From Torpedo marmorata (lineage: Eukaryota), in the NCBI GenBank assembly GCA_977017645.1, contig OZ360222.1:61256001-61320000 (forward strand): a DNA stretch of 64,000 nucleotides, given 5' to 3'. The notes below the pieces were generated by a model that worked only from the letters and a program-made list of their open reading frames with translations, was not told the DNA's origin and did not search any database. The translations under genes were made by a program, and so were the position numbers. Below are positions 879-64,000 of the stretch, in pieces (the stretch's first letter is position 1; each line of letters opens with the position of its first letter).

Positions 879-2048
879 TCTTCTTTTTCAACACTGGACA
901 GCTTGCTAGCATATGACAAGCCTTCCTACAGTAGTGGCAAATGGGACCCGAAGCGTTTTCCCTTTTCCACTTTCCTTCATCTCTTTCCTTAACACCACTT
1001 CCAAATTTACTTTCCACTTGTTTGGGATTATCCACAGTGACCTTTTGGAAAATTCTGCCTGACGTCCACTTAGGCTTGTGGGTTAAAGCATATTCATCTG
1101 CTAACTTAGCTGAATTTTGCCAACTTTCACCTCCTTTTCATCTAAGTATGCCTTAATATCCTCAGGAACACACCTTTTTATCTCCTCAATTATTATCAAT
1201 TCTCTCAATTGATTGTAATCATTGTTTACCGCCTTAGATGTGCACCACCGGTCAAAACACACAACCTTTTCATAGGCAAACTCTGTGTAAGATTGGGTTG
1301 CTGATCTTTTTAAATTTCTAAACTTCTGTCTATAAGCCTCTGGAACTAACTCATAAGCCTGGAGTATAGCCTTTTTCATCATTTCATAATCAGCAGCTTT
1401 CTCTGTGGTAAGAGTAGAATAAGCTTGCTGAGCTTTTCCTTTTATTACACTTTGTAACATAAGAGACCATTGGTCTTGTGGCCATTTTAATTTCACAGCC
1501 ACCTTCTCAAAATGTTGGAAGTACTTATCTATTTTCGCCTCCTCAAATATAGGAACCAACCTAACTTCTCTACTGGCCAAAAACCTCTCAACAGGATGAC
1601 GAATTTGATCTTGGTGCTCTTCTTGTCTCCTCTCATTTTCCAACTTAATCTTTTCCAGCTCATATTGCCTAATTTTCTCCTCATTCTCTAATCTCTTTTG
1701 TTCTCTGTCTGCCTCCAAGTCTAATCTCTTTTGTTCCAATTCCCTGTCTAATTTCTTTTGTTCCCTGGCTACCTCCAAGTCTAATCTCTTTTGTTCCAAT
1801 TCCAATTTCTTTAGTTCCAACTGTTTGTTTTCAGAAGGTTTACCCTTGGGAAACTGCTCTAACACACTCTCTTCAAACTTTTTTCCTTTTGTATAGTATT
1901 TGACAATTTTTCTCCCAATCTCTGCCTTTTTCATTGATGGTTTTACAGAAGCAATGCCCAACTCTGTTACTATAGCCACTAACTGTTCCTTTTTAGCCTT
2001 TTTTAAAGTATCAGGTTCAGGTGATTCCAAAAAAATTTCTACATCCAT
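879..2048 (-). pseudogene. gag: Gypsy (Gmr1-like) gag with SCAN-like capsid domain and CCHC zinc knuckle; frameshifted near 1130 and cut by the L1 insertion
   Basis: ORF 1101-2078 contains YFQHFEKVA..KWP..QW..LQSVIKGKAQQAY..YELVPEAYRQKFRNL..RWC..LRELIIIEE. ORF 850-1035 contains CHYCRKACHMLASC (CX2CX4HX4C). Confidence 0.88.
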
Positions 2049-2161
2049 TGTTGGTGGGTTTTTTTTTGGTGCACACACACTAGCTTTTAATTAGCTTTAC
2101 AAAAGGAATGTCTTAAACCAGACTGGGATTCCTTCAATTACCAAGATGGATCTTGATTCAA

Positions 2162-2180
2162 ATCCTATGACGAGCCCCCA
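2162..2180 (-). promoter_or_regulatory. Primer-binding site complementary to the tRNA-Pro 3' end
   Basis: Minus strand reads TGTAACA-aat-TGGGGGCTCGTC(ATAGGAT). The first 12 nt match the canonical Pro PBS TGGGGGCTCGTCCGGGAT, 3 nt after the LTR end. Confidence 0.88.
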
Positions 2181-2183
2181 ATT

Positions 2184-2317
2184 TGTTACAAATTCAAACC
2201 AACAATGACAGAAGACGTAATGCAAAGGGGGTAAAATTGAAATTTATATTTATTAAAAACAATTAATCATATAATTTCACAACAATTAACCCCACTATAA
2301 ACACTATTCTTATCTAA

Positions 2318-2375
<58 letters not shown>

Positions 2376-3069
2376 GCCCAGACCATTACAGTCTGTGCCC
2401 AACCCTCATGTAAAAATAGAAAACCTTCCCCAAAACCCCCAGGTCAATCATAAAAATAAGTCAGTCCCAAAAATACAGTCCACAAAAATTCACTCTCTAT
2501 GTTCAGGGTCCAAATTCAGCTCCGTGTGCTGGCAAGAAGGACTTCTTAATGAACGTTGGAGAGAGAGACAATGATTGTTTAAGCTTACGAATGCTTGGCC
2601 TGCTTTTCTTCTCTGATGACTTTCCCTTTTGGTACATTCACGAGGATTGCGACTCCAAATCAGTATACCACTGATTGAGGCGTGTACTTGGATCTCACAG
2701 CCTGTCTCACTGATCTCACACCTGTTCTTCACAAAAGTTGCTTTAACTCAGGATTTTGCTGATACAGGAGGCCATGTGCTATTCTCCCATCCTTTTCCCC
2801 TGGGATGCACAAGTCTGGATGTTGCTATGTTCTCCAGCCTTTGCAACTCCAAACACAACTGAACCTCAATGCTTTTTGCAGAGGTTTGCACCTGCTTTTG
2901 CAAAAGTGCAACAAAGTATCCCTCCACATTCTGTCTCTCTCTCTGTGTGAGTACAAGAAGTCCTGGGCAAGTTAACTCTTTCAGTACTAGGTCCCAGTGT
3001 GTACTCCAAAGTACTTCATCCTTCCTGCTGACCGTCCGCAGTCCAAATGGTCAGTCATGGTCCATAACA
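2184..3069 (-). mobile_element. 5' LTR of the Gypsy element (~886 bp)
   Basis: Termini are TGTTATGG...TGTAACA on the minus strand, the PBS is adjacent, and L1 ORF2 coding sequence resumes exactly at 3070. Confidence 0.8.
2320..2372. repeat. (GT)n microsatellite inside the LTR
   Basis: Direct dinucleotide run. Confidence 0.97.
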
Positions 3070-5992
3070 GTCTGGACCTATGAATCCCTTGTTTAGAAGT
3101 TCCTTTTTGTAGTAAAGTATACATGGCTGAAGTGAATTTCTTTATATGTCTATTCCGAATCGAAATTTTAATATCACTAGATTTCGATAATTACATTGTT
3201 GGGCCCAATTTACCTCTTAAGTATGCTCTTAACTGAAAATAACAAAAAAGTGTACTATTCTGTATCCCATATTTATTTCTTAATTGTTCAAATGACATTA
3301 ATTTATCCCCTTCATAACAATCTTCTATGCATCTAATTCCTTTACGAGACCATATGTTTAAAAGTTGATTATCCATTGTAAAAGTAATAAGTTGATTTTG
3401 GATCAAAGACATTTTTGATAACAGAGGTCCCCTCATTTCATCATCAATGTTTATCTTATTCCAAATATTAATCAAATGTTTCAACAAAGGGGTTTCTCTC
3501 TCACCCGTTATTAATTTAGATTCCCATTTATATATAAAATCTTCTGGTATTTTCTCTCCTATCTTATCTAATTCTATTTTGATCCATGCCGACTTCTCTC
3601 CTTCTTCAAAGAAAGAAGCAATGAATCTCGTATGAGCTGCTTTATAATAATTCTTAAAATTTGGAAGCTGTAAGCCTCCCAACTCAAATTTCCATGTTAA
3701 TTTTTCTAAAGAAACCCTCGACATCTTGCTCTTCCAAAGAAACTTTCTTCTATATTTATTTAATTCTTGAAAAAACTTTTGTGGTAACAATATCGGTAAT
3801 GTTTGAAACAAATATTGTACTCTAGGAAATATATTCATTTTAACACAATTGACTCTACCCAATAATGTTATTGGTAACATCATCCATTTATTGAGAACTT
3901 CTCCAATTTTCTTCAGTAAAGGTAAATAGTTCAGTCTATATAAATTGTTTAAATTATTATCTACTTGTATACCTAAATATTTTATACCATTCATCAGCCA
4001 TTTAAATTGGGTTTCTCTTTGATACTGATTATAATCCCCTCTAGTGAGGGGCATAATTTCACTTTTATCCCAATTTATTTTATAACCCGATACTTTCCCA
4101 TATTCTTCCAGTCTTAAATATAATTTACATAATGAACTTACTGGTTCTGTCAAATAGATCAAAACATCATCAGCAAATAAATTAATTTTATATTCCTTTA
4201 ATATCAGGATCAGATCAGACCAATTCTGCAAGTGGTTCTATTGCTAAAATAAATACAGCTAGTGATAGCGGGCATCCTTGTCTACTTGATCTTGTTAACT
4301 GAAATGGTGCAGAGATCTGCCCATTTGTTACAACTTTAGCCTTGGGCTCATTATACAGAGCTTTAATCCAATTTACAAATGTCTGTCCAAACACATATTT
4401 TTCCAACACCTTAAATAAAAAGTCCCATTCCAATCTATCAAACGCCTTTTCTGCATCCAAAGCCACTGCTACACTTAAATCTCCCCTTTTCTGTGCCAAA
4501 TGTATTATACTAAATAATCTAGTTACATTATCTGCAGGTTGTCTCTATTTTACAAACCCTGTTTGATCCATATTTATCAATTTTGGTAAATATTCCGTCA
4601 ACCTATTTGATAAAATCTTTGCAATTATCTTATAATCTGCATTTAGCAACAAAATAGGCCTATACAATGACGTTTTTAAAGGGTCTCTATCCTTTTTTAG
4701 TATTACTGTTAATATCGCTGTAGAAAAGGATTCCGGGAGGGTATGTGTCTCTGCTGCTTGTTGCACTACCTCCATAAATGAAGGAATCAACAAATCTTTA
4801 AATTCTTTATAAAATTCAGGCGGAAAACCATCCTCTCCTGGAGATTTATTACTTTGTAATGAGCTCAATGCTTCGCCCACCTCTTTTGATGTAAAAATTG
4901 TTCTTGAGGTTTGCTCTGCTTTCAACTGCCAAGCAAGAACTTTATGGGCTCTCTCACCTAACTCATAGTATCTCTGTTTAATTTGCATTATTGCTTTTTC
5001 TGTTCTATATGTTTGTAATGTATTATATTGAAGTTTCTTACTAATAAGCCACCTACGTTTCTCCTCAGAGATCCGTCTTTGTGAATCTTTCTCTAAATAT
5101 GTTATCTCCTTCTCCAGTTGTTCTAGCTCCTTCATATATTCCTTCTTAATTTTCAAAGTATAACTTATAATTTGTCCTCTTAGATAAGCTTTCATCGCAT
5201 CCCATAGAATAAATTTATTATTAACCGAGTTAGAGATTGTCTCAAAAAAGAATTAAATTTGCCTTCTAATTAAATCACAAAAGTCTGGTCTTTTTAACAA
5301 CGTTGAATTAAATCTCCATCTATAGACTAATTCTTCTTTATCCAACCTTATGATTGTCATTAACAAAGGTGAATGATCTGATAATATTCTAGCTTTATAA
5401 TCCGCCTGTTTAATTCTACCTTGAAGATGTGCTGATATTAAAATTAAATCTATCCTCGAATAGGAGTCATGCCTCTTTGAATAAAATGAGTAATCTCTTT
5501 CCCTTGGGTAGATTCTTCTCCATGCATCTATTAAGTTCAAATCTTTCATTAATATCAAGGTTGCTTTCGCTGCTTTTGTTCTTGTTATAACTGTAGTTGA
5601 TCTATCTAAAACTGGATCCAAACAAATAAATTTTTCATCATCCACATTCGGTGCATATATATTCATAAAAGTCCATAATTCAGAAAAAGATTTGACAGTG
5701 TACTACCACGTATTTCCCTGCAGGGTTAATTATTATATTCTGTATCTTGACCGGAAGAGTTTTCTTTATCAAGATTGCCACCCCTCTTGCTTTTGAATTA
5801 AATGAAGATGCTGTAACATACCCTACCCAATCTCTCTTTAATTTCTGGTGCTCTGTTTCAGTTAAATGGGTCTCTTGCAAAAAACGCTATGTCTACTTTC
5901 ATTTTCTTAATATATGTCAATATTCTTTTTCTCTCCACCGGTCCATTTAGCCCGTTAACATTAAAACTTAAGAAATTTAATGTATTACTCAT
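3070..5992 (-). pseudogene. L1/Tx1-type ORF2 (APE endonuclease plus reverse transcriptase) with frameshifts, stops and internal deletions
   Basis: Starts MSNTLNFLSFNVNGLNG at 5992. Motifs: QETHL, NIYAPN, YSRID, SDHSP, KSPGEDG, YRPI.LLN.DYKI, DQTGFV, LDAEKAFD, RQGCPLS, FADD, KYLG. Confidence 0.93.
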
Positions 5993-6324
5993 TGATAAAT
6001 TTGATTCATGTCTATGATATTTCCCCCTCACCTCTCTCCTTGCACCTCCCTGAGAATCCTATATTTATAATCTACCATGTTACAGTGCGTCCTCCTCAAC
6101 CATCCAGGTAAAAAGAAAAGAAAAGAGTTATATAAAGAACAACAAAAAAAACCCTATTAATGTTACTTAAATAATTCGCAACACTACCCCCCTCCATTTT
6201 ACGGGTTGTGGCTTCTGCCACAAATACACACATGATTCCGTAGTAGTCAGTCCATATCCTCTCCAACCCCCGGATGTTTACCAGATATAGATCCATCTTT
6301 AACATCATTGTTGATCAAAAACTT

Positions 6325-7090
6325 TTACAATTCTGCCTGCTGGTCGTCCGCCTGTCCGTTATCTGGTAACGTGTTCACGTATTCCTCTGCATGTGCATAA
6401 TTTGAGAAAAATTTATTTTCCCCCGTTCGTAAGAAAATCTTCAGAGTAGCAGGATGTCGTAAAACAAATCTATAACCTTTTTTCCACAGGGCTTGCTTCA
6501 CATTGTTAAATTCTTTTCTTCTTTTCAACAACTCAAAACTTATATCAGGATAAAAGAAAATCTTGTTTGCACCAAACTCCAATGGGCCTTTTCTCGCTTT
6601 AGCTCTTTGCACTGCTGCTGCTAATATTTTCTCTCTACCTTGCTAACAAAGACATTTTATCAATATTGATCTTGGTTTTTGATCTGGTGGTGGCCGTGGT
6701 CTCATTTTGTATTCCCAGAACTTCCGGGATCCAATTTTGAAAAGACTTTATCGGTTCTTCACCTTCTTCACCTTCTTAAGGCCAACAATTTTAATATTAT
6801 TTTGTCTACTGAAGTTTTCTAATAAGTCTATTTTTCCCAGAGTTGTTTTCTTTCATTAACCCATGCATCTGTAGTATTTTCCATATGTCCCATTCTCTCT
6901 CGCACTTCTTCCATTTCGATCTCCAGATTTTTAACTTTATCATCAACTATGTCCAATTTATTTTGCACTTTCATTCCCATATCAAAATATTTCTTCCTTT
7001 CTACTCTCATTTCTCTTAGTTCTTTCATTAATTGTACAGATGTATATTATTCTTCTCCTTTCAGCTTAAGTTTCCTACCTTTATCTTTGG
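6325..7090 (-). pseudogene. L1 ORF1 (coiled coil, RRM and C-terminal domain), 5'-truncated
   Basis: Coiled-coil ORF 6828-7028, then ENFSRQNNIKIVGL, and a CTD-like FFYPDISFELLKRRKEF..LRHPATLKI. Lies upstream of ORF2 with a ~330-bp spacer. Confidence 0.85.
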
Positions 7091-8230
7091 AAACTTGTAG
7101 ATGGCATTGGAATTGTGCCTGGCCACACAGTCATGGGTGTACAACGAGTAGAGCAGTGGACTAAGCATGCATCCTTGGGGGTGTGCCTGTGTTGATAATC
7201 AGTGAGGAGGAGACTTTGTTTCCAATTTGTACTGACTTTGGTCTTCCGATGAGAAAGTCAAGGATCCAGTTGCAGAGTGGGATACAGAGGCCTAGAGTTC
7301 TTGACCAGCACTGAGGGAATAATAGTATTGAAGGCCGAGCTGTAGTCGATGAAGAGCAGCCGTAAGTATGAATTGCTGTTTTCGAGGTGATCCAGAGCTG
7401 AGTGGAGAGCCAGCGATATTGCATCTGCTGTGGAGCGATTGTGACGATAGGCAAATTGCAGTGGGTCCAGATCTTTGCTTAGGTATGTGTTAATTCTGGC
7501 CATGACCAGCCTCTCAAAGCATTTCATCACAGTAGAAGTTAGTGCTACTGGGCGGTAGTCGTTGAGGCAGCCCACACTACTCTTCTTGGGTACTGGGATG
7601 ATTGATGCCCTTTTGAAGCAGGTGGGATCCTCTGACTGCCGCAATGAGAGGTTGAAAATGTCCGTGAACACTCCAGCTAGTTGGTTGGCGCAGATTTTCA
7701 GTACCCTGCCAGGTACGCCGTCAGGGCCTGACGCCTTGCGAGGGTTCACCCTCTTGAATGATGTTCTGACGTCGCCCTCAGAGACAGATATCACAGGGTC
7801 CTCAGCCTTTTCAGGGATTCTAGTAGGCACTATTTTGTTATTCTTCTCAAAGCGGGCATAGAAGGTGTTCAGCTCATCGGGTAGTGAAGCATCACAGCCA
7901 TCTATAGTGTTCGCCCTCGCTTTGTAGGCTGTAATGGCCTGCACTCCCTGCCATAGCTGGCGTGTATCTGTCTCTGTCTCTAGCTTCCTCCGGAATTGCC
8001 ACTTTGCTTCAGAGATGGCCTTCCGCAGGTCGTGCCTGGACTTTTTGTAAAGATCCCGGTCCCCGGCCTTAAACGCCCTTGTTCTCGTCCTCAGCAGGTT
8101 GCGAATTCTCTGATTCATCCAGGGCTTCTGGTTGGGGAACACCTGGTATTTGCACGCAGGTCTTGATGAAGTCGGTGACACCTGTTGCATATTCATTTAG
8201 GTCTATGGCTGAGTGCTTGAATATGTTCAT
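7090..8230 (-). mobile_element. Rex1/Babar-type LINE reverse-transcriptase fragment
   Basis: [77 protein letters not shown]. Confidence 0.9.
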
Positions 8231-9109
8231 AATGACAGGACTGGGATGATCAAATAACTGCCATAAAGAATATATACCATCATAGTTTGCTGAAACCTAT
8301 GGTGTCAATACTTCCAGCTGAACTGATTTATTTTACATACAGGTGTTTGCAACACATCTAATGCTAGATGTAACACATTTATCTTAGTTCAAACACATTG
8401 CGATAGAAAATGGCTCCCTAACCATTTGAGCCACTGCAGTTCAGGGCAAAAGTATTGTGTCTTTTTGCTGTTACACATATATAATTCTTGTAAAAATCTG
8501 ACAAGAGTACCAAGAATAGTCGCATGTGATGTTGCCGGTAAGGGATTAATCTGGAATTATGCTTTCCTTGAAATTTACCTGAAACCTTTCAACATACTCA
8601 TTTGAACAAATGTGGAATTTTCAATGGATCAATTTTGCCTTGTTTTTGTTCATTTTGGTGCCTTTCTGTGTGCTCCCCTTGGGTGTTCATTTTTCTTTTC
8701 TGTTCACGCAATCTTATCTCTTCTTTTCATAATTCCACATCTATCTCTGACCAAATGACCCAATCTTCCAGCAATCAGTCATCCCATTTTGGGATGGGCA
8801 AGCCGCATAGGAATGGGTGTAGACCATTTATCCCCTCAAGTCTGTGCTATCTGGTATGATCATGGCAGATCTATGACCGACCCACATGAGGATTTTCAGA
8901 ATTAGAATTTAGAATTTATTGTCATGAACAAGTCATGAAATTCGGTGTTTCTATTACCTAAAATATATTAATTTCACATTTAAAAATTGCCTTGATATCT
9001 GTGGCATTTTTGAAGTTTCTGTCTGTCTGTGCAAAAGCTCCTTATCTTTGAACATGAAACTCCAAACGTTAGGTTATGTTCCCTGTTCCAAAACATCTCA
9101 ACCTGCCAA

Positions 9110-11250: not shown

Positions 11251-13308
11251 AGTAATAAAAACAGAAAATGCTGAAAACGTTCCGAAGGTCAGACAGCATC
11301 CATGAGGTTAATGTTTCGGGTCCGTCACAAATCAATTTCAGTTTTTATTTCAGTTTTACAGCCTGTCTGCTTTTAAATGCAAGAGATGTTATAGTTGAAC
11401 ACGTTAAACGCCATGGCATAGAAATCTATGCGCCGACTGCTCGTGATGGGAATTGGTATAGATACAATTGATAGCCGATACAAACATGGTGAGCCGAAGG
11501 GCCTGGTTCTGTCCAATGTGACTATGACTCGAAAATCCACGCTATCTGCTCCCGTTCATGGCGTTAAACCTGATCTCGGTGTCACTGGTTACTCACGTTG
11601 CTGCTCGCCGTACATTCCAGAAAGTACACTCCACTTCCTTGCTGGATATACTGTAAAAACAAAAATTGCAAGACCCACCGCATTCCCTTCCATCCCCCGT
11701 GCCTTTGCTCTGAAGTTTGAAATAATCTGATATAGCCCATTGGTCTCCTTACATTGAGGAAAGACCCATGTGTTTCGGGAGCTGGACTACATGTCTTCTT
11801 CCTGCCCCCTCCATGGGTCGGAATACGACTAGCGATTTTTTTAACAGATTCCTGCACATGCAGCGTTTGGCCCTTCCATCCAGTGGTCTTTACGCAATCC
11901 CGGCAAAAAAGGCGAACTCTGCAAATGGACACCCCCCCCCCCCCCCCACCAAACCCATCGATAATTTTGGGTGTATTTTATTGAGAAGGTAGAAGGCGAG
12001 AGGGGTGTTGTTGTACCACTCGGCTCCCAGGCAGAATTAAAGTTTTCCCAAACATGAGGGTTTCAATTTGGTTCATGAGCTGCACTTTTATGTTTTTTGG
12101 TCTCCTGCCGCTATATTCAGTCACCACTCATAAACAAACGCGGTGCTAGTGGGTCCCAATTCTCAGTGGTTACTGGAGCCAAGTGGACGTGGATTTCGGG
12201 TTCTCGGGCCTTCCGATAGAGACAATTTCTTCCCATCATCTTGGCCTTCCGTTGTATGTATCCCGATCATTCGTTTCCGTTGCCGGAGATAGTTATTCGT
12301 TACGTCCATTCTGAATCATTGTGTTATTTAAGTTTGGGAAGGAGAAAGGAACAGAACAGAGAAACGTGTTTTCCGACATGGAGTGGCTCCAATGGAGTGC
12401 AAATGCCTGCAGTAATAAATTGGGCCGCATGGCCTGTTTATTCCCAGTAATTGTTTGGTGTTACTATGGACTAAACGCATTCGATGTCATATTTCTGGTC
12501 TTTTCGTTTTGAGGGCACACTGCATTTTACGCTTTCAAATTCTTTCTGTGATGGTAGGTTCGAACGGATAGCAGACCATTTATCCTTCATATTCTGCATT
12601 AATCCATTAGTCAGAGCTTTTACCCCTTTGTCTAATGGCCACTTTATTTATACTGAACTCATAAGTTCTAGATTACTCACGCAAGGGACGGGGTAAGTAA
12701 ACACATTAAGACCGTGAGCATTTTGTTATTGATAATTCCATCATTTAACTAAAAGACAAGTCGACAAAATATTCACTGTAAATTCAAACACATTAAGCTT
12801 GGAGGAAGGCGATCTGGACAGCTGGATAATAATTAATGTTAAATGTTTTTCCGAGGTATTAAAGAAATTACCATGTGCAAGCATTGTGTTTGGAAACTAA
12901 GGTTTATAGCAGCCGACGTTTGTAAATGTATGATTTTCGAATTAAAAATAGGACATTGAAAATTCATTTTTTACCGAAAGAGCTCTATTCGTGTTATTTT
13001 ACCTACTCTTCGTTCTTGCCATCAGCCCAATTATTTGAATATTTATAATTGTTGTGGTAGATACTTTTGTGCTTTTCCCTAGAAATTATGCAGAAATATT
13101 TAATCCATGTTTGAAAGCATGTTCTAGGGCAGTGATCCACGTTTTCATGGCGTTTAATGTAAGGACGTTGTCATGGGTGCTTTGTATAATAATGTTTTGC
13201 TTGCGGTATTGTGATTTTTTTCGGTTGATATTGCTGACTGTCACACTTTGATTGCAGCACTTAGAACATAGAACAATACAGCACAGGCCCTTCGGCCCAC
13301 GATGTTGT

Positions 13309-13394
13309 AAAAACATACAAATGCTGGAGGAACTCATCAGGTCTCGCAGCGTTCATGGGAGGTCCAAAGAAGTCTGCAGACTTTCCAGTTTCTT
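13309..13394. mobile_element. 86-bp PLE-terminus-derived mini insertion with a 13-bp target-site duplication
   Basis: CCCACGATGTTGT at 13296-13308 and 13395-13407. The insert resembles the PLE end (AAATGCTGGAGGAACTCATCAGGTC). Confidence 0.75.
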
Positions 13395-13709
13395 CCCACG
13401 ATGTTGTGCCGACCTTTATAAACCTACTCAACAATCTAAACCAGTGGTTTTCAAACTGCCCCCCTAAACTCACATTCCACCTTAAGCAATCCCTATGCCA
13501 TAAGTGCTCTGTGATTAGTAAGGGATTGCTTAAGGTGGTATGTGAGTGGAAAGAAAAAGTTTGAAAACCACTGTTTTAATCGTACCTAATTGACTCGTTA
13601 TGAAGTAAAACACGAAAATCTGTAGACACCGTGGTTGAAGTAAAAAACACAAATGCTGGAGAAACTCAGCAGGTCAAACAGTGTATTTTACGTAGCAAAG
13701 GTAGAAATA

Positions 13710-13750
13710 CATAACCGACGTTTCGGGCTTGAGCCCTTCATCAAAGTATG
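13710..13750 (-). ncRNA. Minimal type-I hammerhead ribozyme motif in the PLE 3' repeat (variant core)
   Basis: Minus strand: CATACT-TTGATGA-A-GGGC-TCAA-GCCC-GAAA-CGTC-GGTTATG. Stem II is 4 bp, stem III is the palindrome ACGT, the cleavage triplet is GUC, and stem I pairs CATACT with GGTTATG. Confidence 0.75.
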
Positions 13751-14730
13751 AGAAAATGCCGGCAGGCGTCCGAACAAAAGAGTGAGGGGGGGAAGGGGGT
13801 GGCAAAGGCAGGAGATGATAGGTGGAGAAAGGAGGGAGGGGACAGCAGCAGAGGGGGAGGAGGGATGGCTGGGTGGGTGGAAAAAAACTGGAAGGACAGG
13901 TGAGGGGGGAGGGGAAGGAAAAGACAAGCAGGTTTAGTGGAAAGCAGAAAAGTCAATGTTAATGCCATCTGGCTGGAGAGTGCCCAGACGGAAAATGAGA
14001 TGTTGTTCCTCCAATTTACGGGTAGTCTGCATGGGATAGTACATAAGGCCATGGACAGACATGTGAGTGTGGGAGTGTGACTCAGAATTGAAATGGCTGG
14101 CTACTGGGAGGCCGCTGTTGTTGCGGACGGAGAGGAGGTGCTCAGCAAAGCGATCCCCCAATCTGATGTAGAGAAAGCCACAAAGGGAGCACCGGATGCA
14201 GTAAATAAGTTCTCTGGATGTACAAGTGAAGTGTTGCTTCACTTGAAAGGCCTGTTTGGGGCCCCGGACCGTGGTGAGGGGGGAGGTGTGGGCGCAGGTG
14301 TTGCACCTCCTGCGAGCACAGGGGAAGGTGCCGGGGGTGCGATGGGTGGGGAGGGATGAGAGCACGAGGGAATCGCGGAGGGAGCAGTCCCTGCAGAAGG
14401 CCGAGAGGGGAGGAGAAGGAAAAATGTGTCTGGTGGTGGGATCCTGTAGTAAGTGCCGTAAATTCCGGCGGATAATGTGTTTGATGCGGAGGCTGGTGGG
14501 GTGGTAGGTGAGGATGAGGGGGGTTCAATGTTTGTTGCGTCTGGGGGCAGAGGGGGCCAGGGCAGATGAGCAGGAAATGGAGGAGATGCGGGTGAGGGCT
14601 GAGTTGATGGAGGTGGAGGGGAAGCCACGTTTGTGGAAGAAGGCAGACATTTCAGAAGATCTGGACTGGAACACCTCATCTTGGGAACAGATGCGGCGGA
14701 GACGGAGAAATTGAGAGAAGGGGATGGCGT

Positions 14731-15597
14731 AATGGAGGCGCTGCCAGAGCCGCTGTAGCGGCAGCGCTGCCGCTGGTGCGGACCCGCGGGGAGCATGGGA
14801 GCGGAGATACAGCACTCCCGCGGGGTCCAGCCACCTAGTCGACTGCCGTCGGTTCCGCACGGGCTTTGAACGGCCCGTTAAAGGAGCCGACAGTGGTTTT
14901 ATTTAAGATCCCGTGAACACGGGGTCTGCGCCCAAGATGGCAGCGCCTTTTAACCGGCAGCAGCCACGAGGGGCTGCAGATTCCGGGGAAGCGGAGGACT
15001 GGAGCAGGGCACCAGAGGATGGGAAGATCACCCCCCCCCCCATCTGAGAAGGAGAAGCAGAGGAGACGACCCACGGGACGGTGACCACGGCGGCGGACCG
15101 GTGAGGAGCTCTGAGGCTGAAGGACCAGTGCATGCGGCGGGCTGCTGGCGAATCGAGGCGAGGAACCCGCGGAGGCTGTGGGCTGCTGGAGACTGCTGTC
15201 GGGGGACCCACACCGGGCTGCGGACTACTGGAGGCTGGCTCGAACTGGCTGGAGGAGTACCAGGTATCGGAACCGGGATGCGAGGGGGTGCCGAGGGTGA
15301 CCTGACCGTGTTGGAGGTTCGGATCTGGAGCTCGGGTTGCCGATGGTTTGGACCGGACTCTGTGTGGCTGCGGAGGCTGCAGAAGTGCTGGAGGTGAATC
15401 TATGGACACTCGGTGACTCTGGGGGGACTCTCTTTTGCTTCTCTTTCTCTGACTGTAAGGAATGTTAGAGGCGCTTAGGCAATTTCTGCCGGTGGCGAAT
15501 CTGTCTGCCTTGCAGCAGGCAAAAAGAAATTTCATGGAATATGACACTGTCTTATTACTATGACAATAAATTGTATCTTGAATCTTGAATCTTGAAT
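14731..15597 (+). mobile_element. GC/CpG-rich non-coding retroposon with a Rex1-like (ATCTTGA)n tail, inserted in the PLE
   Basis: Removing it restores the PLE frame (..PCKD|AIPFSQF). It ends in CAATAAA-TTGT-(ATCTTGA)x3. No recognisable protein. Confidence 0.75.
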
Positions 15598-18500
15598 CCT
15601 TGCAGGGGACAGGGTGTGAGGAAGTGTAGTCCAGATAGTTGTGGGAGTTGGAGGGTTTGTAGTAAACGTCGGGGGAAAGCTTGTCTCCTGAGATGGAGAC
15701 AGAGAGATCCAGGAAGGGAGAGTGTTATCGGAGATGGACCAGGTGAGTTTGAGATCGTGGTGGAAGTTGGATGCGAAGTGGATGAAGTTGACAAGCTTAT
15801 CGCAGGTGCAAGAGGCAGCCCCGATGTAGTCGTCGATATAACGGAGGAAGAGATGAGGGGTCTTGCTTGTGTGCACGGTTTCATAACTTCAAAGGAAATG
15901 GGCCAATGACAATTTTTCTCAAGCAAAATATTTCAGTAACAATTGGGTCTCGAGCAGTGGTTCTCAACCTTCCCTTCCCACTCACATACCACCTTAAGCA
16001 ATCCCTTACTAATCACAGAGCACTTATGGCATAGGGATTGCTTAAGGTGGAATGTGAGTTTAGGGGGGCAGTTTGAAAACCACTGATCTAAACCTTCCCT
16101 ACCTCACACCCATAATCCTCTATTTTTCTTGCATCCATGTGCTTGTCTAAGAGTCTTTTAAATGCTTCTATTGCACCAAACTCCATCACTACCCCTGGCA
16201 ATACATTAATATTATTTATTCCGAATATTACTCCAAGAATTACTCCAATAACTCTATTTATTTCCTCAGTGTCTCCCAAACTCTTTACCAAAAGACCAGG
16301 ACGTTAAGTGAGTGGAGAGACAGCATTCAGGAGGTTCCCATGCACAAATAGTTCTGGCCTGGAAGTATATTGCTGTTCTTTCATACTGTTGCTAATTTCA
16401 CACTTGAAAGGTATGGAGCCCACTGGAGTAGATTGACAAATGCATAACAGCAATGATCTCATTGAAAGCCAGAGGTTTAAAGTGCTGAATAGTTCATATC
16501 TATTCCGATATTCGTATTCCAAATGTTTACATTTTCTCTACTTTAACCCTTGTGTCTATAGTGGTCAGAAATGTATAAATAATATTGACTCTAAAACAAT
16601 ATTTTCTTATTTGAATATGGTAATAGCATTGTTGTACCAAGACAGTATATTGCCAAGAGTGGCTCTACTATGTCCCATTTTGATGCATGACCACATCTAA
16701 TATATGGGTTATATTCATGATTTATTGTGTGCTCACCTTGTCAGGTTCCAGCTCAAATCTCAAATGTGAAATTGTTAATCCAATTACTGGAGAAAAAGTA
16801 AGATTTTTCATCTTTGTATTTTCCCCTTATTGGTGGACTTTAGCCAAGGATAAAGGGATATCAATGATGAAGACCAGACATACTGGATGCGTAACCTTAT
16901 TGGAGATCCAGGATTTAAAGCTGGTACACCAGCCTTTGCTCTCTGGGTCAGGCTAGTGTGAAAAAGGATTACTACTACTGACTGACTGGTAATTAATTCT
17001 GGATGCAGGTATCTGACAGGTTGTTGGCTCAATAGATATAGACTATATTACAGCATCTATATATCAGGACATTTTTGAATGGGGATCAAATCATGTATCT
17101 TCTAAATCTGGAGCAGAAATCATTCCTGTGGGCTAGAACTCATTCCATCCAGATATAAATTATTCATTTGAAGTCAGCCCAATATTTAAAAACCATATAT
17201 CCAGTCTTCATTCTCAAGGTTGTCTGAAGCTTGTCACCTTCTGACTCTGAATCGGGAATATAACTACTGGGCAAGTGGTGACTACATACTGATACAATTA
17301 GATCACTATTTGTCAATTCAATATTTGGTGACCAACATTCCACGGACTTGTTGGAAGCTTGGAAAGGCCAATAGGCCACTGGCTAACTATTACCTTTGAA
17401 CAATTACTGGATTACTTGATGTGGTGTTATAACAAGTAAATATAGTCAGAACTATATCTTGTCACTTTTTTAACATACCACCAGGTAATAATGGACATAT
17501 TCTGCTAGAATGAAATAATACATTGCTGGAAAACAAAAGTATCAGGTAGTACTTTCTTTGCTGATTTTTGTTAGAATATTACCTTTTACCACACTTTCAT
17601 ATTATTCTATGATAGCATCATATTTTATAGATTGGTGGCATGTTACTAGAGATAACAGGTGTACTTTGTCAAGTTTTTTTTTTACATTCCTTATTATAGC
17701 CCAGATACAGCATCAAACAATAGCAAGATTGCTGGGAAATCAAATTTGGGTCCTGTCACAGTTTGATATCACAGTTATGTATTGGAACCAACATCACTAG
17801 CTCACAGAATATATATTTTCTGATTTTTGTATTATCGTGCAGTGTACATATTTTGTTCTCTGTAACACGCTGCCTAGAATATAAAATGTTTTACTTTTTA
17901 ATATTGCACATTTGATAATTAATGACAGCAACCTATGAATTGTAATAGATAAGTATATGCCTCACACTTCGAAGATCGCTTCCTGGACATTATACCTCTA
18001 TGCTTTGTCACATCTAACCATGCTGTAGCTCAGCGGTAAGATATAGGCTATGTTATCTTACTTAACAATCCTCTGTGTTGTAATGCACTGCATAGTGAAA
18101 CATGAGTAAAATGTCGCAGATAGTGTTTTTCACAGTGTCACATGATAATATATACTGCCAAGCAATTATACCAGAGTTTGATGGCAAAATAGTTTACTCT
18201 GCTGAGTTTGGCGAAGTGTACTAAATAAAATGTAAGAGTGCGAGAGTTTAATTTTCCGTCACTGGCCGATATCATTCGCGTCGATGTTATCATTCCATAC
18301 AGTGTTGTCAACATTTAGATATGTTGTTGCACTGCTTCTTTTTAAAGATATGCTTTAGGTGGGACAACGGCACACTTTGTGTGAAACCAATGATCTTTGT
18401 TGTGGTTAAAAAAACCCAGCCATTTAGTTACCCTACCGGGGAGGGGAACAGGAGGTTTTCCAAGTTTAAATGTTGGGGGCCAGGTAACATTTAGAGTAAG

Positions 18501-28053: not shown

Positions 28054-28223
28054 GTAAAACACAAAAGTCTGCAGACACCGTGATTGAAGTAAAAACACAA
28101 TGCTGGAGAAACTCAACGTGTCAAACAGTGTACTTTATATAACAAAGATAAAGATACATAACCAAAGTTTCGAGCATGAGTCCTTCATCAAGGTATGAAC
28201 AAAATGGTGGGGGAGGGGGGAGG
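28054..28223 (-). mobile_element. Solo PLE 3' terminal repeat with a decayed hammerhead motif (28157-28197)
   Basis: Homologous to 13605-13760. Minus strand CATACC-TTGATGA-AGGACTCATGCTC-GAAA-CTTT-GGTTATG, with stems II and III mutated. Confidence 0.85.
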
Positions 28224-29889: not shown

Positions 29890-29969
29890 CTTGGCCACCC
29901 AACCATCGTATGCACCATTGCATTATCTAATCACACCTGGAAATGTCAAGAGAAATTTATATTTTTATC

Positions 29970-30194
29970 AGTAGTAAAACACGAAAATCTGTAGACATCG
30001 TGGTTGAAGTAAAAAAACACAAATGCTGGAGAAACTCAGCAGGTCAAACAGTGTCTTTTATGTAGCAAAGGTAGAAATACATAACCGACGTTTCGGGCTT
30101 GAGCCCTTCCCGAAACGTCGGTTATGTATTTCTACCTTTGCAACATAAAAGACACTGTTTGACCTGCTGAGTTTCTCCAGCATTTTGTGTTTTT
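29970..30194. mobile_element. PLE-derived fold-back element (~87-bp near-perfect inverted repeat) with a ~14-bp TSD
   Basis: Arms 30011-30097 and 30109-30197 differ by one mismatch and one indel, with an 11-nt loop. TTTATATTTTTATC occurs at 29956-29969 and 30195-30208. Confidence 0.88.
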
Positions 30195-30349
30195 TTTATA
30201 TTTTTATCCTTCTGTAATTGAGTTTTTAACGCATGGAAAAGATTAAATATTATTTAACGTAACTTTTCTATGTACATTTACTTACATACGTGGAGATCGA
30301 TGTGGAAATGCAATGTAATTCCAATTAATTATAGTTTTAAATATGAGAA

Positions 30350-30975: not shown

Positions 30976-31816
30976 CCTATCATCACAGTTGTATTGCCCT
31001 TTAATCTCGCATAATATTGGCACTTCGTGAAAAACTGGTGAGGTCCACCCGTGCTTTACTCTGGCATAATTAACAGAAATAGTATATCCGCAAAAAGAAC
31101 GCATAGCATTTGATGCTGCGGTTTTGACGGCAAAACTGTAGCAATGTCTTCATTATTTACGCATAATAAACAAAAATATTTTTAAAAACTAGCTACGTTG
31201 CGGATTAATCCTGCGTATAGCTACATATCTCAAAGGATGATTTGTGATGATGATGATGATAATGATGATGTATGGATTGCAGGGCAATCAGGAACATTTG
31301 GGAAATCGCTCCGTGGTGCCAGAACTTGGCTTGTTACTATTTTGTTACAAAATACGCGAACGGAATTTCTTTAGACAATAGTGGATAATACATGGAATGG
31401 ATGGCTACCCACGAAGAGTTCATAAAACAAAGCGGTATATTCGAACAGCAACGGAAGCAGTCATGGGCAGAGAACCTCATTTCACGCATACATCCACCAA
31501 TCACAAAATTCGCAGAACAATAGGGAAAACATGGCCTAGTTGAGCAATAATGTCAATGATGCAAATTTGGACAATTGTTATCGGTAGAGCGAATTGAGTC
31601 TGGATATTATCTTGTTAAGTCCAAGTATGTACAAAATGTGTTGGTGCAAGTCTTTGATTTTCATATCATGCCACCGAAGTGGTATTTGCGCTCACTGCAA
31701 ATGGGCTTAGCACAAGTCCCTGGCATCTGCGGATTGAATCATTGGTATATAGATAATACTACGAAAGAATTCAAGAAGAAATAATATAAGATAAGAGGAC
31801 ATTAGAAAATTATTGT

Positions 31817-32064
31817 AGTAAAATACGAAGGTCTGCAGACACCGTGATTGAAGTAAAAACACAATGCTGGAGAAACTCAGCAGGTCAAAAAGTGTACTTT
31901 ATAGAGCAAAGGTAAAGATACAGAACCAACGTTGGGGGCTTGGTGCCTGCCTACATTTTACTCATACCTTGATGAAGGGCTCAAGCCCGAAACGTTGGTT
32001 ATGTATCTTTACCTTTGCTCCATCAAGTACACCTGCTACGTTTCTCCACCATTGTGTTTTTATG
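31817..32064. mobile_element. Second PLE-derived fold-back element with a 13-bp TSD; the right arm carries a complete hammerhead motif
   Basis: AGAAAATTATTGT at 31804-31816 and AGAAAGTTATTGT at 32065-32077. PLE termini are inverted. Confidence 0.82.
31963..32003 (+). ncRNA. Minimal hammerhead ribozyme motif (variant core)
   Basis: CATACC-TTGATGA-A-GGGC-TCAA-GCCC-GAAA-CGTT-GGTTATG. Confidence 0.7.
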
Positions 32065-35289: not shown

Positions 35290-38200
35290 AAGAATGCAAT
35301 GGGAATCGACAAAGAATTGTTATGAGAATACTGCTGCTGTAGAAAGTGGAATATAATTAGTTCAATGCTTGTCATAATTCGTCATGCAAATACTTGGCAC
35401 CATTGTAAACAAAACACGTGGTTTCAACTATCCATTGTTTAGATTTTAAAACTGTTAAATTGATAGAAAAAGCAATGAGAGGGTAGGTTACCATTTCTCA
35501 ATTTTTGTCACTACTTTTGTAGAACGTTTCTCTTTTCTAATTTCATACAGGTAGTAAGTTCAGTGGATCGTGCTTAATACCGGTGCTTAGGCGAAGATTA
35601 ATCATGGGGATAGATTCCCGAAGCTGATTTAACTCATGTGTGCTTCATTTGGATTTTATATCAAAGCGGGTATTCATTCAACACGTTTTTCTGCCTCAGA
35701 ATTCGTCCTCTCCGCCTTTTGAATGAAATCCAGCCCGTGCAATGGAAAACAATTTGAAAAGATCATGATGTTATTATTATTTTAATTCTATGCTGTCACA
35801 CAGACTTTTGATTCCTAACTGGCACCTGTAACTAAACAATAGTTGTAACCATAACAATAACGTATTATTCCTTCGATCTGTTCATATTCAAACAGTAACA
35901 GTTCACCACTTCAGTTTTATTCAAAAGTCCTCCCCTTCCACACACAGGGCAGATGAGAGCATTGGCGCACCACAGTTCCGAGGTTTGCGAGAAAACTTTG
36001 TCAAAAGGAGCATGCGGGACTTTAATCTCAGTGTTGTTAAGCACGCTGTTTCCTTTATAGTCGGAAATATACAGGGTTGGTAATAATTTTGAAGAATTTG
36101 ATAAAGCAAACGTAAATTATCGCAAGGCCGATTAATATCTGTGGTAAGAAATTGTAATGTGATTAGCCATACATTTAAATATTTAGTAATTTCTTCACGA
36201 AAACGTCCTGTAAGGTTCTTACCCTTCCATGTGGAGTGGATATGCCAATTATTGGTTAAATAAAGTATATTATGCTCCTTCAGCGGAAACATACGCTTTA
36301 ACTTTGAGTATATTACTACATTGGCAAATAGATTTTTTGGAGAAGTATATTGCCCCAAAACTCCGAAGACGGAGATCCTGCTTTCTCATTCATGTATTAG
36401 TATTAATATTATTATTTAGTGAAGTGGCACGATAATCCTCTAGCGTTAAAACCTTGCGCTTGACTGACTCATCTGTTGAGTGCAATGCAGGCGATGGAAA
36501 TCAATGTATCTGCTGCAGGCTAGGCTAATGGATTAGAATTAGTCTATAGTGTCGAGTGTTCGATAGCATGGGGGATGGTGATTCCTTTGCCAGGATTGTG
36601 TAGCCCCCGTTTATCTATAACAAGCTGTCCGTAATCCAAATAAAGTAATCATCACCAGCGTGTAAAGTTCCGGCAGCATTATTTCCTTACAGTAAGGAGG
36701 TAGTTCTCACGCGCACAACTTAATGAAGACGCTCAGCTAATGAAACGGGAACGGATTTGGCAAATTGTTCTTTCATCATCTGTCAGAGGCTTTTTGGAAT
36801 AAAACAACATTAAAAGGAACCTTTTATCCTCGTTTCGATCTCCCTCGGGGAGCACTATACATTTGTTTCGAATAATTTACTTTAAGATTTCAAAAGACTA
36901 ATTGATTTTTAAGTGCTAACTCAGTGGGGGGAAAGCACAATGCCATACGCCAAAAGCAAGCAATTGGCAATCGAAAGGTTGCCTGAATTTCATAGCAATC
37001 GAGCATTTTTATTCGGGAGAACTCAAGATGGGCATCTGCTTTGGGCCGCTCGAGGGACCGATTATGTAGAAGCAGTTAAGTCAACTTTTTTTGACTAAAG
37101 CAGATTGAAATGTCAAGCCGACTGACCAATGAGCCATGATAGCACCATATGATATTATATTGTGTTGAACTGGATTCAGTGCTTTTATTCATGTAACTAA
37201 TTCGTTTTGACACATACACACATAACCCAGTAGCAGGAAGCCCGGCCTTCACCCTTCACCCTCGTCTCCTCCCAGCAACCTCACCACCATCCCCATTCCC
37301 ACCCCCACCATCCATCACCACAAAAACGCGGCTACATTTCCTGGGCTTGGACTCACAGCTTTGTTCAATTCATTAGAAGTAACGAGTTGACATAAGTAAA
37401 TCTACGGTAAGGCGCCTTTATTTCTTGTCTATAGGCGGCCTCATTAAATATCGCTAACAAGGCGTGCAAATCTCCTGACTGGACAGATTTCGTGTAACGC
37501 TCTGCCCCTTGCAGGATATACATTTAACGAAGGCCACAGGAAAAGTGACAGGCAAGAATTTGCAAATTCCCAAAGAGTGAAAGTTTTTCAACCATATCAT
37601 TTGATACCTGTTCCCACTCTCGCCACAAACTGCGCATTCACTTCTGCCAAACAGAGGTTGATTGTAAACACGATTGTAAAAGCAAACTGCTCCTTCCAAT
37701 CTATCAGAATCTCATTGTCTTAAATGATATTAACATGTTCAAATCCACAGCGCAGGTGACTTAGTAATCAGTGTTCCTTTCAAATACAAATTTAAAGATA
37801 AAGCATTCCTTCCCAAATCGTTTGATTATTTAAATTATCGCAATTCTAATTACAACACTAAAAAGATTGGTGATTTTTAAAAAATCAGCATCGGTCTTCG
37901 GCTGCTACTCCACATAGACTTCGATTTAAAAAGTCGCAGCTGTGTTTTTAAATCCCTCCGTGAGCTCCTCGAGGCTTACCCCTGTCATCTTGACTGCAGG
38001 ACTCGAAATGTCTGCCTTTCTACATTAAGCATTCCCGATTTTAATCGCCGCATCACTGGAATTTGTGACTTCCACTTCTGGGACTTAAGCCTCAGAATCG
38101 CTCTGCCTCCAGAAAAATAAACTTCTGCAACCCCTTACCTCCTCTGAAGGGCTCCTTGAACAAGCTTTGGGTCATTCGCCCTAATATCTCTTTATGTGTC

Positions 38201-62987: not shown

Positions 62988-63248
62988 TAGTAGTCTACTG
63001 CATTTAGTGCTCTCAGTGTGGCCTTCTCTCCAGTGAGGCCAAATGCACATTGAGCAACTGCTTTGCTGAGCACCTGTGCTCTGTTCACCAGTGCTGGTCA
63101 GAACCCCTGGTTGCCAGCTGTTTTACTTCCTCTCACCATTCCCACTCAAACCAGTCATTCCTAAACCTCTTCTACTGCCAGGGTGAGGCCAGATACAAAC
63201 CTGAAGAACAGCATAGCATATTCTACTTGAGCCTAAAACCCAATGGCA
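62988..63248 (+). mobile_element. PLE GIY-YIG endonuclease fragment
   Basis: VYCI*CSQCGLL..CFAEHL.SV..PLVA..F..HSHS..EEQH.IF.L..KPNG. Confidence 0.8.
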
Positions 63249-64000
63249 TAAGAACATAAGAAGTAGGATCAGGAGTAGGCCATCAATTTGATGGTGAGTA
63301 CACATATAGGTTTAGCAGTGGAATTCAATTTGTTTGTGAATGTGCAAGGGAATATCAGTAAGTATGATTGAACTCAGTGTGACTGCAAGAATGAATTAAG
63401 TCAGTGAAAAGGTGTAAACAATTTGAATGTAGATTGAATAATGCAAGTGCATGGATGGGTTCGGTGGAATGATAAATGTATGAAAGAGTGAATGTCCTCA
63501 GTATGATTGTAAACATTTAAATGAGTTCAATGTGACAGTGAGTGTATAAATCAAATCAGCTTAATTTTGACTGTGCCAATGAGCTTAGTTGCCTGTGTAT
63601 GCAATAGAAATTTTTGATGGGAATCATTCAGTGAGCTTAGTGTGACAATGTGAATGTGCATGATTTCAATGTGACAGTGAATCCATAAATTATCTCAGTG
63701 TGGTAGTATATGTGTGGGTGAAGGAATTATGTGTAAATAAGATCAGTTTTCCTATGAAAGTTAAACGAGGTCAGCATGATTGTGAGCATGCAAATTATTT
63801 CAGTGGAGTAGTGAGTGCTTAAATGAGCTCTGTGATGTAATGGGGTGAAAATGAGCTGGTTCTGACTGTGTAAGTGACTTCTGATCAAGTGTTCAGATGA
63901 GCTCAATGTGAATATAACATTAAAAAACAGAAACATTCAGTCCCTTCCTTGTATCAGCTCTGCCATTCAATATGACCATGACTGACCTTTCACTTCAGGG

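What the first reader, a model, noticed from the sequence alone, without database searches (positions are those of the whole stretch)
13603..13760. Penelope-like element family carrying a minimal hammerhead ribozyme with a non-canonical UUGAUGA core
Seen: the PLE 3' repeat reads CAUACU-UUGAUGA-A-GGGC-UCAA-GCCC-GAAA-CGUC/GGUUAUG on the minus strand (13710-13750). Related copies lie at 31963-32003 (+) and 28157-28197 (-, decayed). All three have U, not C, at core position 3 with G8 retained, plus an extra A before stem II, so the variant is a family trait rather than one mutation. Established: PLE terminal repeats carry minimal type-I hammerheads whose loop-less palindromic stem III (here ACGU) forms in dimers, and C3-G8 is a conserved tertiary pair. 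Inference: this is a U3-G8 wobble variant that may cleave slowly or only as a dimer, with predicted scission after GUC (between 13717 and 13716).
Basis: partly seen in the sequence, partly recalled or inferred. Interest (0 to 1): 0.8.

Follow-up and report, generated by a model that had tools for sequence, protein, structure and literature searches.

The report
Mismatched-core hammerhead in a successful retrotransposon
A still-young jumping gene with over 100,000 copies in this genome carries a hammerhead self-cutting-RNA motif whose normally fixed C-G core pair is U-G, and the stems around it were repaired by matching changes afterwards, so it is likely a slow ribozyme kept by selection, although cutting is untested.

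Summary
U3 with G8 is the family state: 547 of 77,333 exact genomic copies have C3; a general minimal-hammerhead pattern gives 105,341 U3 against 3,267 C3; 26 of 26 copies found without looking at the core have U3. The carrier is a Penelope-like element (RT + GIY-YIG, about 3.8 kb unit, ribozyme at both ends); its youngest copies are 99.6-99.8% identical, one has an unbroken 1,159-aa ORF, and all have U3. Related C3 families exist; the closest has the same tail and is one base shorter before the core, so U3 likely came with a one-base insertion. After that, helix I grew from 4 to 6 pairs by compensatory changes, twice, while only position 7 of the core varied. Against: C3 mutants are poor cutters in print, insertion ends show no trace of the site, no RNA evidence. 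The extra A is ordinary for these elements, and a U3-G8 row already stands, uncommented, in a 2014 supplement. Verdict: new variant of a known kind; cleavage untested.

The parts
13710..13750 (-). Minimal type-I hammerhead motif, subfamily F1 (U3, U7, G8, site GUC)
   Evidence: sequence; 77,333 exact copies of its central 24 bases
13745..13750 (-). Helix I, 5' strand (positions 2.6-2.1); 2.1 is U here, C in older subfamilies
13738..13744 (-). Core U3-U4-G5-A6-U7-G8-A9 (U3 = 13744, G8 = 13739)
   Evidence: U3 in 26 of 26 core-blind copies
13737..13737 (-). Extra A between A9 and G10.1, usual in Penelope-type hammerheads
   Evidence: PMC4209133
13725..13736 (-). Helix II, 4 pairs with a 4-base loop
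13718..13724 (-). G12-A13-A14 and the ACGU palindrome (13721-13718) predicted to form helix III between two copies
   Evidence: kept in 9 of 9 family consensus sequences; dimer model from PMC4209133
13716..13717 (-). Predicted scissile bond after GUC (inferred from hammerhead numbering, untested)
   Evidence: sequence; inference
13710..13716 (-). Helix I, 3' strand with one bulged U
13603..13709 (-). Tail of the terminal repeat; most genomic copies end about 113 or about 75 bases past the predicted site; in full elements it runs on into the ORF's 5' leader
13751..13933 (-). Pyrimidine-rich 3' untranslated region of the element
13934..14730 (-). 3' part of the ORF: RT thumb, C-X4-C-X2-C linker, GIY-YIG endonuclease (damaged), residues 891-1159 of an intact copy, 90% identical
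14736..15593 (.). An unrelated 0.86-kb dispersed repeat inserted into the ORF
15594..15876 (-). RT fragment (YIDD motif), residues 797-891; the element is 5'-truncated here
31963..32003 (+). Hammerhead motif of the older subfamily F2 (2.1 = C, U3, site GUU)
28157..28197 (-). Decayed F2 hammerhead motif (U3 and G8 kept, helix II and palindrome damaged)
29968..30195 (.). Inverted pair of 5'-cut terminal repeats lacking the first half of the core
31815..31942 (-). 5'-cut terminal repeat, inverted partner of the 31963 copy

Best explanation
This is the terminal-repeat hammerhead motif of a Penelope-like retrotransposon lineage in which U3 with G8 is the fixed state, and it is likely a slow, pair-dependent ribozyme that selection has kept. 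Shown: full elements carry two same-strand copies 3.8-4.2 kb apart; U3 is in the youngest, ORF-intact copies; the nearest C3 family has the same tail and one base fewer before the core; across U3 families helix I has compensatory changes and only position 7 of the core varies. Inferred: (1) U3 came with a one-base insertion (a U, or a C followed by C-to-U) in an ancestor whose C3 was prone to pair with the GG after the cleavage site; the old C3 became the closing pair of helix I. (2) In a transcript that spans both repeats the two motifs would pair through ACGU, swap helix I strands and cut after GUC/GUU at a low rate, U3 holding G8 by a wobble. (3) The unit-length RNA would be re-joined and copied more than once round, which gives the partial tandems; genomic ends lie 75-113 bases past the site, so the priming template is uncut or re-joined there, and a low rate would be enough. 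The copy in the window is a dead single insertion.
For: U3 fixed: 93 of 100 listed non-main copies; 26 of 26 found by a tail-only profile in 464 kb. Active carriers: L319 unbroken 1,159-aa ORF with RT and GIY-YIG hits; 5 dispersed F0a copies 99.6-99.8% identical over 2.46 kb; both ends identical in 3 of 3 F0a tandems. C3 relatives: family K 96 of 98 C3; family M and U3 family F5 share the tail; spacing goes with loop type (11:5 against 7:72, Fisher p 1.2e-6). Selection after U3: helix I 4 pairs (F5), 5 (F3), 6 in two branches; a C.A mismatch mended once as C-G (F2) and once as U-A (F4t); an A-U pair turned to U-A; the closing pair went C-G, U.G, U-A. On 37 distinct real copies 3 of 6 helix I pairs change on both sides; 0 of 500 shuffles reach the paired share, cell count or covariation score; slid partners fall to 5-48% paired. 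Position 7 takes C, G, A and U; 0 of 14 other core/palindrome columns vary against 56 of 88 tail columns. In folding models C3 of a family-M copy is drawn into helix I, and U3C deepens a misfold in 8 of 8 U3 copies. Minimal Penelope hammerheads cut weakly and only as dimers in vitro (PMC4209133).
Against: No cleavage or RNA data: no run on record as RNA, contigs only. In a canonical hammerhead all single changes in this motif gave low activity (PMC9901934). The better pair U3-A8 never became a visible family although G8 sat in a mutable CpG in F5/F3b: 1,640 scattered copies of mixed types. The youngest subfamily has weakened G10.1-C11.1 to G.U (13,230 copies). Both recent changes (C11.1U, G1.1A) are CpG transitions, so chance can explain them. 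No copy starts at the site (0 of 87; nearest -3 and +2) and 30 of 30 core-anchored copies run through it. The modelled active dimer is less stable than competing folds for every representative (F1: -15.1 against -25.0 and -32.4 kcal/mol). The number of co-varying pairs alone is not above shuffles (156 of 500), copies were hand-picked and related. Ten of the 14 core columns were fixed by my own filters. Family order is only partly resolved and M is not measurably older than F5 (0.094 against 0.121). Naiad elements spread without such ribozymes (PMC8557442).
Confidence: 0.55

Rival explanations
1. The fold is kept but no longer cuts: after U3 it serves as a structural signal (RNA dimer contact, binding site for the element's RT, or part of the promoter/terminator in the terminal repeat).
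For: Explains helix I repair together with U3, the unfixed U3-A8 rescue, G10.1.U11.1 and the absence of a footprint at insertion ends. Another block of the tail (GACC..GCTGAG..CTCCAGC) is also kept across families, so non-catalytic constraint exists in this repeat. PMC4209133 leaves other functions open.
Against: The pattern of change is the catalytic one: only position 7 is free and takes all four bases, position 17 stays C or U, and G5, G8, G12 and the palindrome stay although three of them lay in CpG sites.
Confidence: 0.25
2. A relic under relaxed selection: U3 killed the ribozyme, the element does not need it, and the motif has simply not yet decayed.
For: C3 change is damaging in canonical hammerheads; Naiads do without; the newest changes are CpG decay; short motif, few lineages.
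Against: Since U3 arose 56 of 88 tail columns changed among family consensus sequences and none of the core except position 7; helix I gained pairs and mended one mismatch in two different ways; the core-blind sample shows no family with a shared core change.
Confidence: 0.12
3. The register is different: the C before UU is still C3 and the extra U is an insertion inside the core, like the salt-pond hammerheads with insertions next to C3.
For: The likely origin is a one-base insertion at this place; natural variants with insertions near C3 cut slowly at high Mg2+ (PMC3088659 section 9).
Against: That C pairs with G1.1 and co-varies with it (C-G, U.G, U-A); in F1 and F0, the largest and youngest families, it is U, so no C is next to the core.
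Confidence: 0.08

Closest known systems
Minimal hammerheads (min-HHR) in the pseudo-LTRs of animal Penelope-like elements (Cervera and De la Pena 2014, PMC4209133; read: main text parts 1-3 of 4, supplement parts 1-2 of 3)
   Same: Type I, no loop 3, palindromic 15.2/16.2, extra base after A9, G10.1-C11.1, short helix I, position in both terminal repeats, mostly solitary 5'-truncated copies.
   Different: U3 with G8 instead of C3-G8; about 105,000 pattern matches against 4,000-9,000 in coelacanth and frog; a bulged 6-pair helix I whose rebuilding can be followed family by family.
Saccoglossus kowalevskii (1) row of Fig. S3 in the same paper (core UUGAAGAA, next to a partial Penelope-like ORF)
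   Same: U3 with G8, extra A, ACGU palindrome, Penelope-like context: the same core variant, already printed.
   Different: One representative row, not commented on or assayed in the text I read; other phylum, other helices, so an independent origin is likely.
U3-A8 core variant (Schistosoma Cercyon elements, PMC4209133; PMC3088659 section 8)
   Same: U at position 3 in natural hammerheads.
   Different: U3-A8 keeps a Watson-Crick pair and is known to be active; here G8 stays and A8 is only a scattered 1,640 copies.
Salt-pond hammerhead variants with insertions next to position 3 (PMC3088659 section 9; one is written U2a-G2b-U3...G8 in PMC7151607, passage only)
   Same: A natural U3...G8 core and an insertion at the helix I / core junction.
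   Different: Prokaryotic/phage, two-base insertions left unpaired; the section I read reports assays only for the C3 form (HHmeta).
Neptune (or Nematis) clade of endonuclease-bearing Penelope-like elements (PMC8557442, passages)
   Same: Single ORF, RT then GIY-YIG, DKG motif, C-X4-C-X2-C linker, partial tandems and inverted 5' pieces.
   Different: Clade not tested by a tree; long proline-rich repeat region in the N-terminal half of the ORF.

Membership tests
Penelope-type minimal hammerhead | Core CUGANGA ... GAAA ... NUH | tested here: not met
   All positions met except C3, which is U with G8 kept; hence filed as a variant, not a plain member
Penelope-type minimal hammerhead | Extra base between A9 and 10.1 | tested here: met
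   A in 9 of 9 family consensus sequences
Penelope-type minimal hammerhead | Helix II opening with G10.1-C11.1 | tested here: met
   G-C in F1-F5; G.U in the youngest F0 subfamilies; no double change in helix II among U3 copies
Penelope-type minimal hammerhead | No loop 3; palindromic 15.1-16.1 | tested here: met
   ACGU in 9 of 9 consensus sequences; many source loci were fetched with patterns that contain it, the core-blind sample agrees
Penelope-type minimal hammerhead | Helix I supported by compensatory changes | tested here: met
   3 of 6 pairs change on both sides; hand-picked related copies
Penelope-type minimal hammerhead | Lies in both terminal repeats of a Penelope-like element | tested here: met
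   10 full elements with two same-strand copies 3,809-4,225 bases apart
Penelope-type minimal hammerhead | Self-cleavage as a dimer | not testable with these tools
   No assay; folding models do not favour the active dimer; no RNA reads
Endonuclease-bearing Penelope-like element | One ORF with RT and C-terminal GIY-YIG | tested here: met
   L319: RVT_1 E 5e-6 and GIY-YIG E 5.5e-4, both just under Pfam's cut-offs; DKG and YIDD motifs
Endonuclease-bearing Penelope-like element | Partial tandems, inverted 5' pieces, 5' truncation | tested here: met
Neptune clade | CX2-5CXXC linker between RT and endonuclease | tested here: met
   C-X4-C-X2-C at residue 1027; motif as given in PMC8557442
Neptune clade | RT groups with Neptune elements in a tree | not tested
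   No reference proteins were fetched
U3-A8 compensated variant | A at position 8 | tested here: not met
   G8 in all consensus sequences; A8 in 1,640 scattered copies

The most novel reading that the evidence does not exclude
U3-G8 is an adaptive down-tuning: a one-base insertion freed the core from mispairing at the price of a wobble, and this slow ribozyme, needed only to cut and circularise a small share of transcripts, has since carried the most successful retrotransposon lineage of this genome. The dated series K, M, F5, F3, F4/F2, F1, F0 is then a natural record of a ribozyme being broken and rebuilt, and a direct way to test what Penelope hammerheads do.
Probability: 0.3. Interest if true: 0.75.

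Novelty: new variant of a known kind. Interest (0 to 1): 0.52.

Why it matters
The role of hammerheads in Penelope-like elements is open: they cut poorly in vitro (PMC4209133) and one paper suggests they may merely ride along (PMC8557442). Here a core change expected to be crippling sits in a recently active family with intact ORFs, next to C3 relatives in the same genome, and the stems around it kept being repaired. That gives matched natural pairs (C3 against U3, same tail) for a clean assay. If they cut, the C3-G8 rule has a large natural exception and C3-based searches miss about 97% of such motifs in this genome (3,267 C3 against 105,341 U3); if they do not, the hammerhead fold is under selection for a job other than cutting.

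Tried and rejected
Rfam scan of the window: no hammerhead model matched at E up to 5. 'U3 copies are decayed C3 copies': rejected; several of the 20 C3 copies of the main word that I read are single T losses or T-to-C changes in U3 families. 'Extra A is family-specific': rejected from print. Footprint of cutting at insertion ends: none (34 of the 87 copies ran past my 400-base reference and had no start placed; tail-anchored sampling cannot see copies ending at the site; the core-anchored 30 all ran through it). An apparent pile-up of 5' ends about 32 bases before the site (4 of 87) is too small to call. RNA evidence: no RNA holder listed; contigs cannot show ends; one search listed no base differences at all on the 60-base stretch, so it says nothing on C3 shares; it only shows contigs of organisms B and D aligning through U3 and going on with the older helix I strand. 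Copy tree on the tail (216 rows, 97 F1 copies left out, 140 columns): only two deep splits are firm (SH-aLRT 100 and 96); F5, M, K and O are unresolved, no root test was run. Divergence medians come from pattern-picked copies and are only a rough age guide; the F2 group was mixed with F1 and was redefined. The 97-copy tally includes loci chosen beside core matches and is not fully core-blind; the 26 of 26 tally is (2 of the 26 are window copies; 58 tail hits in all, 32 lacked a readable first half of the core or belonged to M, K, O). A U3-A8 subfamily: not visible in the 100 listed rows or in 4 such copies among my loci; a small one cannot be excluded. Literature: ten searches found no paper that describes or assays U3-G8 in a Penelope element or hammerheads of cartilaginous-fish elements; Luense et al. 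2017 (small hammerhead variants of Penelope-like elements), Przybilski and Hammann 2007, Nelson and Uhlenbeck 2008, Martick and Scott 2006, Hammann 2012 and Arkhipova 2017 were not held, so measured U3-G8 rates and a possible earlier description remain unseen. Perreault's supplementary figures gave no searchable text; the preprint's supplements are closed. No complex or protein fold was predicted; not needed.

Full report
Observation. The window lies at G000:C11:61,256,001-61,320,000 in a 6.22-Gb genome and holds two Six3os1 conserved regions, so the host is a vertebrate; that it is a cartilaginous fish is my recollection from the look of its repeats and was not tested. Rfam finds no hammerhead here.

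The carrier. The motif ends a 5'-truncated element (15876-13603, minus strand) with an RT fragment, a cysteine linker and a damaged GIY-YIG domain, split by an unrelated 0.86-kb repeat. Other copies give the whole element: about 3.8 kb, one ORF, and the ribozyme plus a tail of about 113 bases repeated at both ends in the same direction, with variable extra 3' sequence or an inverted piece in front. Ten full elements have two motifs 3,809-4,225 bases apart. L319 has an unbroken 1,159-aa ORF with RT and GIY-YIG hits just under Pfam's cut-offs and a C-X4-C-X2-C linker, the mark of Neptune elements in PMC8557442 (passages). No tree was made for the clade.

U3 is the rule. The central 24 bases occur 77,333 times; 547 of these have C3, and 30 of the first 30 have U3. 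A general minimal-hammerhead pattern finds 105,341 with U3 and 3,267 with C3 (controls 52 and 44). Leaving out the main loop type there are 21,251 matches, 93 of the first 100 with U3. To avoid leaning on the core I searched 400 kb of blind blocks plus the window with a tail-only profile: 58 hits; the 26 of the U3 lineage with a readable first half of the core all have U3, the 8 better-kept copies of families M, K and O all have C3, and no family shares a core change. The youngest subfamily, F0a (A7, U11.1, A1.1), has five dispersed copies 99.6-99.8% identical, against 95.0-98.3% for seven F1 copies; it makes up 24 of the first 100 of 13,230 matches with U11.1. So elements that moved very recently carried U3-G8.

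Where U3 came from. Real C3 families exist: K has C3 in 96 of 98 matches, with its own helix I; M has C3 and the same tail as the U3 family F5 but is one base shorter between the upstream GC and the core. In the first 100 of 981 matches to a pattern that allows both spacings, the CCAG loop goes with the short C3 form (11 short, 5 U3, 2 CC) and the UCAG loop with U3 (7, 72, 3); Fisher p 1.2e-6 on the first two classes. The simplest reading is a one-base insertion that turned the old C3 into the closing base of helix I; a C insertion followed by C-to-U, or a loss of U from F5 to M, is not excluded. In a folding model the C3 of an M copy is itself drawn into helix I by the GG after the site (a second M copy folded otherwise). 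The tail tree separates F0-F2 (SH-aLRT 100) and F4 (96) but leaves F5, M, K and O mixed, and rough divergences put K and O oldest (0.136, 0.170) but M (0.094) below F5 (0.121). The order is therefore inferred, about 70% for the insertion.

What happened after U3. Nine U3 family consensus sequences (3-100 copies each; the first 40 used where more) show helix I with 4 pairs in F5, 5 in F3a/F3b and 6 in F2, F1, F0 and in F4t, F4, always with one bulge. The outer C.A mismatch of F3 is C-G in F2 and U-A in F4t; an inner A-U is U-A in F4; the closing pair reads C-G in F2, U.G in F1 and F0b, U-A in F0a. Position 7 is C, G, A or U; position 17 is C or U; the other 14 core and palindrome columns do not vary while 56 of 88 tail columns do (Fisher p 4e-6, inflated because my filter fixed 10 of the 14; the blind sample agrees without that filter). 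On 38 hand-picked real copies (37 distinct) 90% of cells pair, 3 of 6 helix I pairs change on both sides, and 0 of 500 shuffles reach the paired share, the number of doubly changed cells or the covariation score; the count of co-varying pairs alone is reached by 156 of 500, slid partners give 5-48% paired, and helix II has no double change. Copies are related, so these are not probabilities. Still, this is the pattern of a hammerhead under constraint, and it post-dates U3.

Against activity. In a saturation mutagenesis of a canonical hammerhead all single changes in this motif, which includes C3, had low activity, and only the G-C swap was rescued (PMC9901934, passages); no rate for U3-G8 was found in papers I could open. 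U3-A8, the known active pair, is one CpG transition away in F5 and F3b yet appears only as 1,640 copies of mixed types. The youngest families trade G10.1-C11.1 for G.U. Nearest-neighbour energies put the active dimer above competing folds for all 8 representatives (F1 -15.1 against -25.0 for two misfolded monomers and -32.4 for the best co-fold; only F3/F4 monomers fold with the core free), without counting tertiary contacts; U3C lowers the monomer energy by 0.6-2.4 kcal/mol in 8 of 8 by pairing position 3 into a wrong helix. Insertion ends do not mark the site: 0 of 87 tail-anchored copies start at it, 3' ends cluster near +75 and +113, and 30 of 30 core-anchored copies run through it. No run on record as RNA was listed and only contigs could be laid, which is no evidence either way.

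Mechanism. I commit to a slow, pair-dependent ribozyme (0.55). A transcript over both repeats would bring the two motifs together through ACGU, each core taking the cleavage strand of the other, as modelled in PMC4209133, and cut after GUC/GUU; the unit-length RNA would be joined and copied more than once round. The identical 5' and 3' repeats of young copies and 5' repeats that reach back variably into the endonuclease region fit a circular template but also fit template switching on a terminally redundant RNA. Rivals: kept fold without catalysis (0.25), relic (0.12), other register (0.08).

Known and new. PMC4209133 (main text parts 1-3 of 4; supplement parts 1-2 of 3) describes this class, the extra base after A9, weak dimer cleavage and U3-A8; its Fig. 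S3 has one Penelope-associated row from Saccoglossus with U3 and G8, which the text does not mention. PMC3088659 (sections 8, 9) and a passage of PMC7151607 give U3-A8 and salt-pond variants with insertions next to position 3, one written with U3 and G8. The 2026 preprint 10.64898/2026.07.22.740005 (parts 1-2 of 5 and passages) includes one cartilaginous fish and does not discuss the core; PMC7229834, PMC6765202 and PMC3884650 were seen as passages only. Ten searches found no description or assay of U3-G8 in these elements, but Luense et al. 2017, the paper most likely to hold one, could not be opened. Earlier notes of this scan concern U3-A8 only (empty). So the core variant is not without precedent; what is new here is its fixation in a huge, recently active vertebrate lineage and the readable history of its origin and repair. 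New variant of a known kind, interest 0.52.

Noticed in passing
G000:C1:705,865-748,726 (locus L124): A satellite of about 43 kb built from 26-28-base units that begin at the ACGU palindrome of this ribozyme and take in the cleavage site and the start of the tail; it lacks the core.
   Followed up: partly
G000:C1:126,306,000-126,326,000 (L300, L301): At least three F0a ribozymes in head-to-tail array 3,809 and about 3,855 bases apart, flanking near-intact ORFs, 99.8% identical: a candidate source locus.
   Followed up: partly
window 14736-15593: A 0.86-kb dispersed repeat with short tandem repeats at one end, inserted into the RT-endonuclease ORF; 14 matches at 67-93% identity in 400 kb of blind sequence. 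Type not determined.
   Followed up: no
window 13440-13573 and 15955-16083: Two copies of a palindromic element of about 130 bases with CAGTGGTT ends flank the Penelope insertion in opposite directions; they look like sub-terminal parts of a DNA-transposon derivative into which it inserted.
   Followed up: no
window 37364-37624 and 40953-41142: Rfam Six3os1 conserved regions 5 and 7, above gathering score: the window lies beside the Six3 locus.
   Followed up: no
window 62990-63250 (+), 61014 and 13307-13363: Remains of older, more distant Penelope-like families: an endonuclease piece at 44% identity and two decayed tails.
   Followed up: no
window 1101-8196 (-): A run of five long same-strand open frames (149-348 aa), probably one broken retroelement; not translated.
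   Followed up: no
L319:1705-5181: The N-terminal half of the intact ORF holds a tandem peptide repeat of about 19 residues and a long proline-rich stretch whose length varies between copies and sets the 3.8-4.2 kb unit size.
   Followed up: no
window 13640-13665 (-): A block of the tail (GACC..GCTGAG..CTCCAGC) is kept in all C3 and U3 families and can form a small hairpin; a second constrained element in the terminal repeat.
   Followed up: no
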